Origin: Eledone cirrhosa
Taxonomy: Eukaryota
Direction of reading: 5' to 3'
NCBI GenBank assembly: GCA_964016885.1
Contig: OZ024754.1
Location: 496,001 to 560,000 of the forward strand
Length of the DNA stretch: 64,000 nucleotides
In this document: one piece after another, positions 29,491 through 30,427 of the stretch
Layout: the number at the start of each line of letters is the position of its first letter
Position numbering within the stretch: position 1 is the first letter of the stretch
The notes under the pieces: generated by a model
The model's input: the letters and a program-made list of their open reading frames with translations, nothing else
Told to the model about the DNA's origin: nothing
Database searches by the model: none
Program-made: the position numbers and the translations under genes

Positions 29491-29730
29491 ACATTATATT
29501 TCATTTAATACTATAAGGCAAGCAAGTAAAATGGGACATTATATTTCATTTAATACTATAAGGCAAGCAAGTAAAATGGGACATTATATTTCATTTAATA
29601 CTATAAGGCAAGCAAGTAAAATGGGACATTATATTTCATTTAATACTATAAGGCAAGCAAGTAAAATGGGACATTATATTTCATTTAATACTATAAGGCA
29701 AGCAAGTAAAATGGGACATTATATTTCATT
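29491..29730. repeat. 45-bp minisatellite, about 5.3 perfect copies
   Basis: Unit acattatatttcatttaatactataaggcaagcaagtaaaatggg. Confidence 0.95.
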
Positions 29731-29742
29731 GTTGACCTAGTG

Positions 29743-29870
29743 GTGATATGGCCATAACAAAAGGAAAGATTTACAGCACCTAGGTTTCCCAAGTGGTCAC
29801 CCATCGAAGTACTAACTAGACTTGACATTGTTTAACGTCGGTAATCGGATGAGCACAGGTGTTTCCAAAC
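29743..29870 (-). pseudogene. 5S rRNA pseudogene, circularly permuted
   Basis: Minus strand gives 5S nt ~18-120 (ctcatccgattaccgacgttaa..gttagtacttcgatgggtgaccacttgggaa..ggtgctgta), then a T-rich linker, then gttatggccatatcac (nt ~1-17). Confidence 0.85.
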
Positions 29871-30427
29871 CCTAAGCAAGATGGTTGGATAACATCCATG
29901 AGCTTGGTTGGTCTTGCTTGGGGGACCCAGTCAGATCAGTTGGAGATGGTTGCTTCTGACAGGACCCACTGGAAGGAGTGTTTGGGGATTCTGTGCCTCA
30001 TGATCCTCTCAAGAATAAGTGGGTGAAGAAGAAGAGACCTTGTTGGTTAGAGTGTACAACCCCCAATCATAAGGCTGTAGGTTTAATCCCTGGACTGGGT
30101 AGTGCATTGAGCCCCTCAGCAAGATATTTCATTTCACGTCACTTTTCATGATGCCCTGAATTTTGCAGTATTGCTTTTTATTGCATTTATATATATATAT
30201 ATATATATATACTGCTCATATATATATATTCAGACAAGACTGCATGTATACACGTTATGCTGGACATTCCTTCAAGAATTTTCACCATAGACTTTGTTGA
30301 CATGTATATATATATGTATATATATCCAAGGAGTGTAGCGTGGACTTACTGTAGGTTCACCCAGGTGAGCACTCAATGTCTAGGTTCACATCGGTGGCAA
30401 GGTGTAGAGCTAAACAGAGTGTAATAT

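What the first reader, a model, noticed from the sequence alone, without database searches (positions are those of the whole stretch)
29743..29870. Circularly permuted 5S rRNA retrocopy
Seen (compared with metazoan 5S from memory): the minus strand reads nt ~18-120, a ~10-nt U-rich linker, then nt ~1-17. The piece missing at the 5' end is the piece appended at the 3' end. Established: 5S ends are juxtaposed by helix I, and non-LTR RTs template-jump. Inference: reverse transcription of a nicked or circularised 5S RNA across the 5'/3' junction. An alternative is one unit from a 5S-derived tandem repeat with a tiny spacer. It abuts a LINE 3' fragment head to head.
Basis: partly seen in the sequence, partly recalled or inferred. 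Interest (0 to 1): 0.7.

Follow-up and report, generated by a model that had tools for sequence, protein, structure and literature searches.

The report
Circularly permuted 5S rRNA retrocopy
A dead, single-copy DNA copy of 5S ribosomal RNA has its first 17 letters placed after its tail, likely because a jumping-gene enzyme started copying inside the RNA and hopped across its paired ends; it is a rare fossil of a known kind of accident, with no sign of a function.

Summary
Confirmed. The minus strand reads 5S nt 20-119, the genomic 3' trailer that other dispersed copies also carry, then nt 1-17 (14 of 15 matched; 3 of 200,000 shuffles). A contig from a run with another organism label spans the junction, and there the 5' start is exact, so this is no assembly error. 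It is a singleton. Four genome-wide patterns found no other junction, and native arrays have long spacers, so the tandem-repeat rival fails. The copy abuts a 5'-truncated LINE head to head, and the pair sits in a tRNA-SINE with a weak, decayed target-site duplication. Likely mechanism: one twin-primed insertion. One DNA end primed on the LINE tail. The other primed near 5S nt 17, ran to nt 1, jumped to the same RNA's 3' end and stopped at nt 20. No covalent circle is needed. Each step has candidate examples elsewhere in this genome; for instance, 66 of 76 dispersed 5S copies abut another repeat. Precedents in print: antisense 5S/L1 chimeras, tailless 5S retrocopies and a permuted vault-RNA pseudogene. 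The scan earlier noted a tailless 5S copy in another genome, but no permuted one. New variant of a known kind; modest interest.

The parts
29733..29744 (+). Left copy of the likely target-site duplication; resembles the A box of the tRNA-SINE that resumes at 30036; its last 2-5 bases overlap or can pair with 5S nt 16-20 (possible priming microhomology)
   Evidence: Aligns 10 of 12 columns with 30036-30047 (p about 0.02 with tight windows, 0.19 with loose windows); 2 mismatches to the commonest SINE head 12-mer, reached by 111 of 200,000 random positions
29743..29758 (-). 5S rRNA nt 1-17, displaced to the 3' side
   Evidence: nt 3-17 match 14 of 15; exact nt 1 start in run X4 contig
29759..29767 (-). 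3' trailer / Pol III terminator of the 5S precursor (the 'U-rich linker')
   Evidence: Same trailer type in many dispersed copies
29768..29867 (-). 5S rRNA nt 20-119, decayed (15 of 108 positions differ from its subfamily majority)
29867..30035 (+). 3' end of a 5'-truncated LINE with a (GAA)n tail, joined head to head to 5S nt 20 with 0-2 shared bases; clade looks RTE-like (recalled, not tested)
   Evidence: 3903 candidates, 40 scored at 87-93%; longer copies continue upstream; relatives encode RVT_1, E 4.8e-13 in 1 of 5 frames tested, weaker in 2
30036..30150 (+). Older tRNA-derived SINE, lacking its first ~10 nt, into whose A box the composite likely inserted
   Evidence: 68-74% to other copies; loose-end heads of the nearest copies in public runs carry the same A-box form as the left flank
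29491..29730 (.). Flanking perfect 45-bp minisatellite, 5.3 copies; locus-specific and recent, not part of the insertion; it may have eroded the left flank

Best explanation
It is a decayed, single-copy 5S rRNA retrocopy whose nt 1-17 follow its 3' trailer, likely made in one LINE-driven, twin-primed insertion in which the reverse transcriptase likely jumped from the 5' end to the 3' end of the same, non-circular 5S molecule. Inferred steps: (1) A LINE endonuclease made staggered nicks in the A box of an old tRNA-SINE. (2) One DNA end primed on the LINE's GAA tail and copied about 170 nt. (3) The other end primed on a 5S precursor at nt 16-20 through 2-5 bases of microhomology, or at a nick there, and copied to nt 1. 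(4) The enzyme jumped to the U-rich 3' end, which helix I holds beside nt 1, and copied back to nt 20, where it met its own primer hybrid or the nick. (5) The two cDNAs were joined head to head and a 11-12-bp duplication was left. Shown: the order and precision of the pieces, uniqueness in the assembly, presence in a second organism, and head-to-head geometry. Inferred: single event, same molecule, priming mode. No function is expected.
For: The junction runs exactly from trailer to nt 1 in the second organism, as an end-to-end jump predicts. Break points are complementary (17 | 20). Among 53 dispersed copies picked by their 3' end, 48 start at nt 16 or earlier, 1 at nt 17-24 and 4 later, so a stop at 20 is rare without a block. 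Helix I pairs nt 1-9 with 110-118. Each step has candidates elsewhere in the genome. Joins to the 5S 3' end: 66 of 76 copies abut another repeat vs 52 of 150 random sites, p 3e-14. Internal priming: L194 holds nt 3-58 between 16-of-17 direct repeats. Priming from both DNA ends: L200 holds 5S 4-74 head to head with 5S 4-78, between 10-of-12 direct repeats read by eye. A second head-to-head LINE/5S join: L058, 1 of 106 copies. The LINE piece alone has no duplication (score 4), the composite scores 7. Divergences are compatible: 15 of 108 vs 14 of 168, p 0.16. In print: antisense truncated 5S/L1 chimeras with 7-15-bp TSDs, with twin priming proposed for antisense chimeras (10.1101/2025.02.02.635956); internal priming of 5S (PMC5322556); template jumping and 5-6-nt priming by L1 RT (PMC10830420); read-through of paired 5'/3' ends of vault RNA (PMC4897178 supplement).
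Against: It is one case, and the same-molecule claim rests on one coincidence of break points (my estimate: about 1 in 25 if a second molecule could stop anywhere). The duplication is decayed: p about 0.02 with tight windows, but 153 of 812 mismatched flank pairs score as well with loose windows, and the A-box test was chosen after seeing the data. The same 14 nt also match this copy's own internal 5S stretch at 10 of 14. The target's last 8 nt pair better with 5S nt 90-110 (-7.5 kcal/mol) than with nt 16-20. Nt 17-21 lie in helix II, while most tailless break points are in loops. The SINE's first ~10 nt are not recognisable left of the duplication. L058 has no detectable duplication. No empty site was found.
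Confidence: 0.6

Rival explanations
1. Two-molecule jump: the enzyme copied nt 17-1 of one 5S RNA, jumped to the 3' end of a second 5S RNA and happened to stop, or was later truncated by the LINE, at nt 20.
For: Jumps from another RNA's 5' end onto a 5S 3' end are the norm here (66 of 76). One of 53 copies starts at nt 22 and four later, so truncation happens.
Against: It needs the two break points to match by chance. No other 5S-5S head-to-tail join was found with four patterns.
Confidence: 0.17
2. Template was a covalently closed 5S precursor (3' trailer ligated to nt 1), opened by internal priming at nt 17.
For: The precise trailer-to-nt-1 junction fits equally well. circRNA-derived pseudogenes exist (PMC4897178), and RNA ligation precedes some U6/L1 chimeras (PMC6789731, search listing only).
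Against: The copy is just under one turn long, whereas a circle allows more than one (a double pass is described for circCAMSAP1). A Pol III 5'-triphosphate is a poor ligation substrate (recalled). It is a singleton.
Confidence: 0.1
3. DNA-level rearrangement: an ordinary 5S copy or a 5S-5S pair was reshuffled after insertion by the LINE, deletions and the minisatellite; the 14 nt after nt 17 would then be internal 5S sequence.
For: Those 14 nt match internal 5S at 10 of 14. The site is repeat-dense and recently unstable.
Against: It needs DNA breaks exactly at both RNA ends. The second organism's changes at 29737-29738 weaken the internal-5S match and keep an A-box match (read by hand). No nt 1-19 remnant lies beyond the LINE.
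Confidence: 0.1
4. One unit of a 5S-derived tandem repeat with a tiny spacer, or a chance 15-nt match.
For: Chance 15-mers occur genome-wide: 2 of 30 fetched hits had no 5S body, and the control pattern gave 1 match.
Against: Only one junction exists in the assembly. Native arrays have periods of about 0.86-2.6 kb. The match lies in exact register; 3 of 200,000 shuffles score as well.
Confidence: 0.03

Closest known systems
Non-colinear vault RNA (vtRNA2-1) pseudogene, Dong et al. 2016, PMC4897178 Suppl. Fig. S1D (read: part 1 of 2 of the text and one supplement passage)
   Same: Pol III RNA with paired 5'/3' ends; a permuted genomic copy attributed to read-through of a non-closed RNA
   Different: Here it is 5S rRNA in a non-mammalian genome, keeps the precursor trailer, and is joined head to head to a LINE
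Antisense 5S/LINE-1 chimeric insertions (twin priming), 10.1101/2025.02.02.635956 (read: passages and section 30)
   Same: 3'-truncated 5S in antisense to a 5'-truncated LINE, one short duplication around both
   Different: There 5S nt 1 typically sits at the LINE junction and the 3' break is at nt 46 or 90; here synthesis went on past nt 1 to the 3' end, and the LINE is not L1-like (poly-GAA tail)
Tailless 5S retropseudogenes, Noll et al. 2015, PMC5322556 (read: passages)
   Same: Internal priming through 2-18 nt of target complementarity, no poly(A) tail
   Different: Those are colinear 5' fragments, mostly broken in loops and tied to L1 in therians and lizard; this one breaks in helix II and is permuted
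circRNA-derived pseudogenes (PMC4897178)
   Same: Non-colinear order in a retrocopy
   Different: Those arise from back-spliced exons; no circle is shown here
SINE3 (5S-headed SINEs; PMC5786205, passages)
   Same: 5S-derived retroposed sequence
   Different: Single copy, lacks the 5' head arrangement and a LINE-derived tail in sense; not an amplified unit

Membership tests
Twin-primed RNA/LINE chimeric insertion | Small-RNA segment antisense to a 5'-truncated LINE, 5' ends adjacent | tested here: met
Twin-primed RNA/LINE chimeric insertion | One target-site duplication around both parts | tested here: inconclusive
   10 of 12 columns; p 0.02 tight, 0.19 loose; A-box test 111 of 200,000
Twin-primed RNA/LINE chimeric insertion | Both parts absent together at the orthologous site in an outgroup | tested here: inconclusive
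   Only run X4 showed an orthologous contig, and only for the left part
Tailless retropseudogene | 3'-truncated RNA copy without poly(A), with target microhomology at the break | tested here: inconclusive
   No A tail; 2-5 nt overlap, but not the strongest pairing site
Tailless retropseudogene | Colinear copy running from nt 1 to the break | tested here: not met
   Copy continues past nt 1 into the 3' end
circRNA-derived pseudogene | Non-colinear junction | tested here: met
circRNA-derived pseudogene | A covalently closed parent RNA with that junction | not testable with these tools
   No RNA run of raw reads was available
SINE3 or 5S-derived satellite | Many copies of the same unit | tested here: not met
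   One junction in the genome
Functional 5S rRNA gene | Colinear, near-identical to arrayed genes, folds as 5S | tested here: not met
   83.5% identity, 57 vs 113 bits, folding z-score -0.06
RTE-clade LINE (partner) | RT phylogeny and AP-endonuclease placing it in RTE | not tested
   RVT_1 shown in relatives; clade label rests on recalled C-terminal motif and microsatellite tail

The most novel reading that the evidence does not exclude
Animal germ cells make a covalently closed 5S precursor, with the 3' U-trailer ligated to nt 1 (perhaps a surveillance intermediate), and this locus is its genomic fossil. More modestly, this lineage's LINE enzyme handles 5S RNA so often that its genome records a full repertoire of end jumps, internal priming and twin priming on one RNA.
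Probability: 0.1. Interest if true: 0.65.

Novelty: new variant of a known kind. Interest (0 to 1): 0.3.

Why it matters
The locus itself is almost surely inert. Its value is as an in vivo record that a non-LTR reverse transcriptase can jump across the paired ends of one RNA during integration. It is also a caution: a permuted retrocopy, or a back-junction read, is not proof of a circular RNA. The wider pattern could be tested genome-wide: most dispersed 5S copies here are fused to varied SINE or LINE ends, which is the raw material of new SINE heads.

Tried and rejected
Tandem array with tiny spacer: rejected (1 match each, the window, controls 0 and 1; 6 matches, control 2, only the window is 5S; 5 matches, control 6, none 5S by their matched letters). 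Both arms of at least one junction pattern are present in 18 of 22 BLAST-picked copies; these are less diverged than the window copy, so old permuted copies or break points before nt 13 could be missed. L006's long BLAST match is an extension into a SINE fragment, not a junction. LINE inserted into an intact 5S: no nt 1-19 on the far side. Duplicate of the locus elsewhere: none. No RNA holder listed, so expression and RNA junctions were not tested. Runs X1 and X2 have no cover at 29737-29753, X8 none on the unique flanks, and X4 none across the LINE junctions; holes prove nothing. Pfam on the C-terminal LINE piece gave nothing significant. Duplication search around 30 5S-SINE fusions was mostly confounded by AT microsatellites. 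Literature: no permuted 5S retrocopy turned up (titles and abstract starts only; subscription papers and bioRxiv supplements, including the chimera catalogue of 10.1101/2025.02.02.635956, were not seen). Earlier scan findings: none with all words, one related.

Full report
Setting. The window is G000:C14:496001-560000 of a 3.0-Gb, microsatellite-rich animal genome. It looks cephalopod-like to me; that is recall, and no tool named it. Native 5S genes lie in arrays on C4 and C14 with periods of about 0.86-2.6 kb. A 3'-end motif has 938 exact matches; among the 100 rows listed, 61 are dispersed and 39 are from the C4 array.

Rfam gives one hit in the window, 5S at 57 bits. Against the arrayed gene L031, the minus strand carries nt 20-116 at 29867-29771 (83.5%), three decayed bases, a 9-nt trailer, and nt 3-17 at 29757-29743 with 14 of 15 matches. 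Three of 200,000 shuffles score as well, and no other site in the window does. The trailer is one of the two commonest types among dispersed copies, so the template was a precursor that still carried its terminator. A contig of run X4 (organism B) covers 29688-29812 with 13 differences and no gap, more than 50 nt on each side of the junction. Its changes at 29758 and 29759 put 5S nt 1 directly after the trailer. The arrangement is therefore real, old and precise at both RNA ends.

It is a singleton. Two junction patterns each match only the window (controls 0 and 1). A third gives 6 matches, of which only the window is 5S (control 2). A pattern for longer second pieces gives 5 matches against 6 in the control, none 5S. 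Both arms of at least one pattern are present in 18 of 22 test copies, an optimistic figure for old copies. The flank is unique. The tandem-repeat rival fails.

Surroundings. At 29867 the 5S meets, head to head, the 5'-truncated end of a LINE 3' fragment (29867-30035, plus strand, GAA tail). The family is large (3903 candidates), other copies extend further 5', and relatives encode RVT_1 (1 of 5 frames above the cut-off, 2 weaker). After the tail an older tRNA-SINE begins at its A box and lacks its first ~10 nt. The 12 nt on the far side of the 5S piece resemble that A box. They align in 10 of 12 columns with the right flank; 778 and 604 of 40,000 random pairs reach this with tight windows, but 153 of 812 do with loose windows. 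They have two mismatches to the commonest SINE head, which 111 of 200,000 random sites reach (a post hoc test). The nearest SINE copies in public runs carry the same A-box form. The LINE alone has no duplication (score 4), while 6 of 29 family members score 9 or more against 27 of 812 null pairs. Divergence of the 5S (15 of 108) and of the LINE (14 of 168, biased low by selection) does not differ significantly (p 0.16). I put a single composite insertion at about 0.7.

Genome context. Of 91 loci examined, 89 had a 5S hit, 78 were non-redundant and 76 kept the 3' end. In 66 of those 76 another repeat starts within 30 nt, against 52 of 150 random sites (p 3e-14). The same trailer joins different partners, which points to independent joins. 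Of 53 copies picked by the 3' motif, 48 start at nt 16 or earlier, one at 22 and four later. I left out 8 of the 61 dispersed rows because they were already held; they start at nt 11 or earlier. L194 is a tailless copy (nt 3-58) between 16-of-17 direct repeats. L200 is two 5S 5' halves head to head between 10-of-12 direct repeats, read by eye. L058 is a second head-to-head LINE/5S join, 1 of 106 copies tested, with no duplication found.

Mechanism (inferred). Both ends of a staggered break primed reverse transcription, one on the LINE tail and the other on 5S near nt 17. The second cDNA ran to nt 1, jumped to the U-rich 3' end that helix I holds alongside, and ran back to nt 20. The target's last bases can pair with nt 16-20, so the stop falls at the edge of the primer hybrid. 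A nick at nt 17-20 would give the same product, and the two cannot be told apart here. Against it: nt 17-21 are helical; the target end pairs better with nt 90-110; the 14 nt also match internal 5S at 10 of 14; and no empty site was seen. Odds: same open molecule 0.6, two molecules 0.17, covalent circle 0.1, DNA rearrangement 0.1, array or chance 0.03.

Comparison with print. Antisense, truncated 5S/L1 chimeras with 7-15-bp duplications are catalogued, and twin priming is proposed for antisense chimeras (10.1101/2025.02.02.635956; passages and section 30). Tailless 5S copies arise by internal priming (PMC5322556; passages; lead from an earlier scan note). L1 RT jumps templates and extends 5-6-nt primers (PMC10830420; passages). 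A permuted vault-RNA pseudogene was attributed to read-through of paired ends without a circle (PMC4897178; part 1 of the text and one supplement passage). PMC5786205 (passages) and PMC6007223 (abstract) gave background only. No permuted 5S copy appeared in searches.

Verdict. A real, old, single-copy permuted 5S pseudogene that works like a twin-primed chimera with one extra end jump. It is a new variant of a known kind, with no sign of function. Interest 0.3.

Noticed in passing
L002-L030, L050, L057-L086, L126-L153 (dispersed 5S copies): 66 of 76 dispersed 5S copies are fused through their 3' trailer, sometimes through an A run, to several different SINEs or short GAT-tailed elements (control 52 of 150). 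This genome-wide 5S-chimera pattern may be more interesting than the finding itself.
   Followed up: partly
L200:1496-1631 (G000:C2:362881417-362881534): Two 5S 5' halves (nt 4-74 and 4-78) head to head, joined at a palindromic stretch near nt 6-11, between 10-of-12 direct repeats; looks like twin priming with 5S at both DNA ends.
   Followed up: partly
L134:1435-1595 (G000:C1:358877408-358877583): Fold-back 5S (nt 23-69 inverted, then nt 1-69) with inverted, not direct, flanking arms of about 30 nt; single copy among 40 scored.
   Followed up: partly
L058:431-1535: About 1 kb of the same LINE family antisense and head to head with 5S nt ~81-117 plus a U tail; no duplication found.
   Followed up: partly
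L194 (G000:C4:37809370-37810390): Tailless 5S copy (nt 3-58) with a 17-bp duplication; the paper read (PMC5322556) reports such forms only from therian mammals and one lizard, among the vertebrates it screened.
   Followed up: partly
window 29491-29730: Perfect 45-bp minisatellite, 5.3 copies, unique to this locus, directly beside the insertion.
   Followed up: partly
G000:C14:42768914-42777589 (L037-L047): Native 5S genes alternate in orientation (inverted pairs), unlike the head-to-tail C4 arrays; the C4 spacer holds a degenerate 5S nt 84-116 fragment.
   Followed up: no
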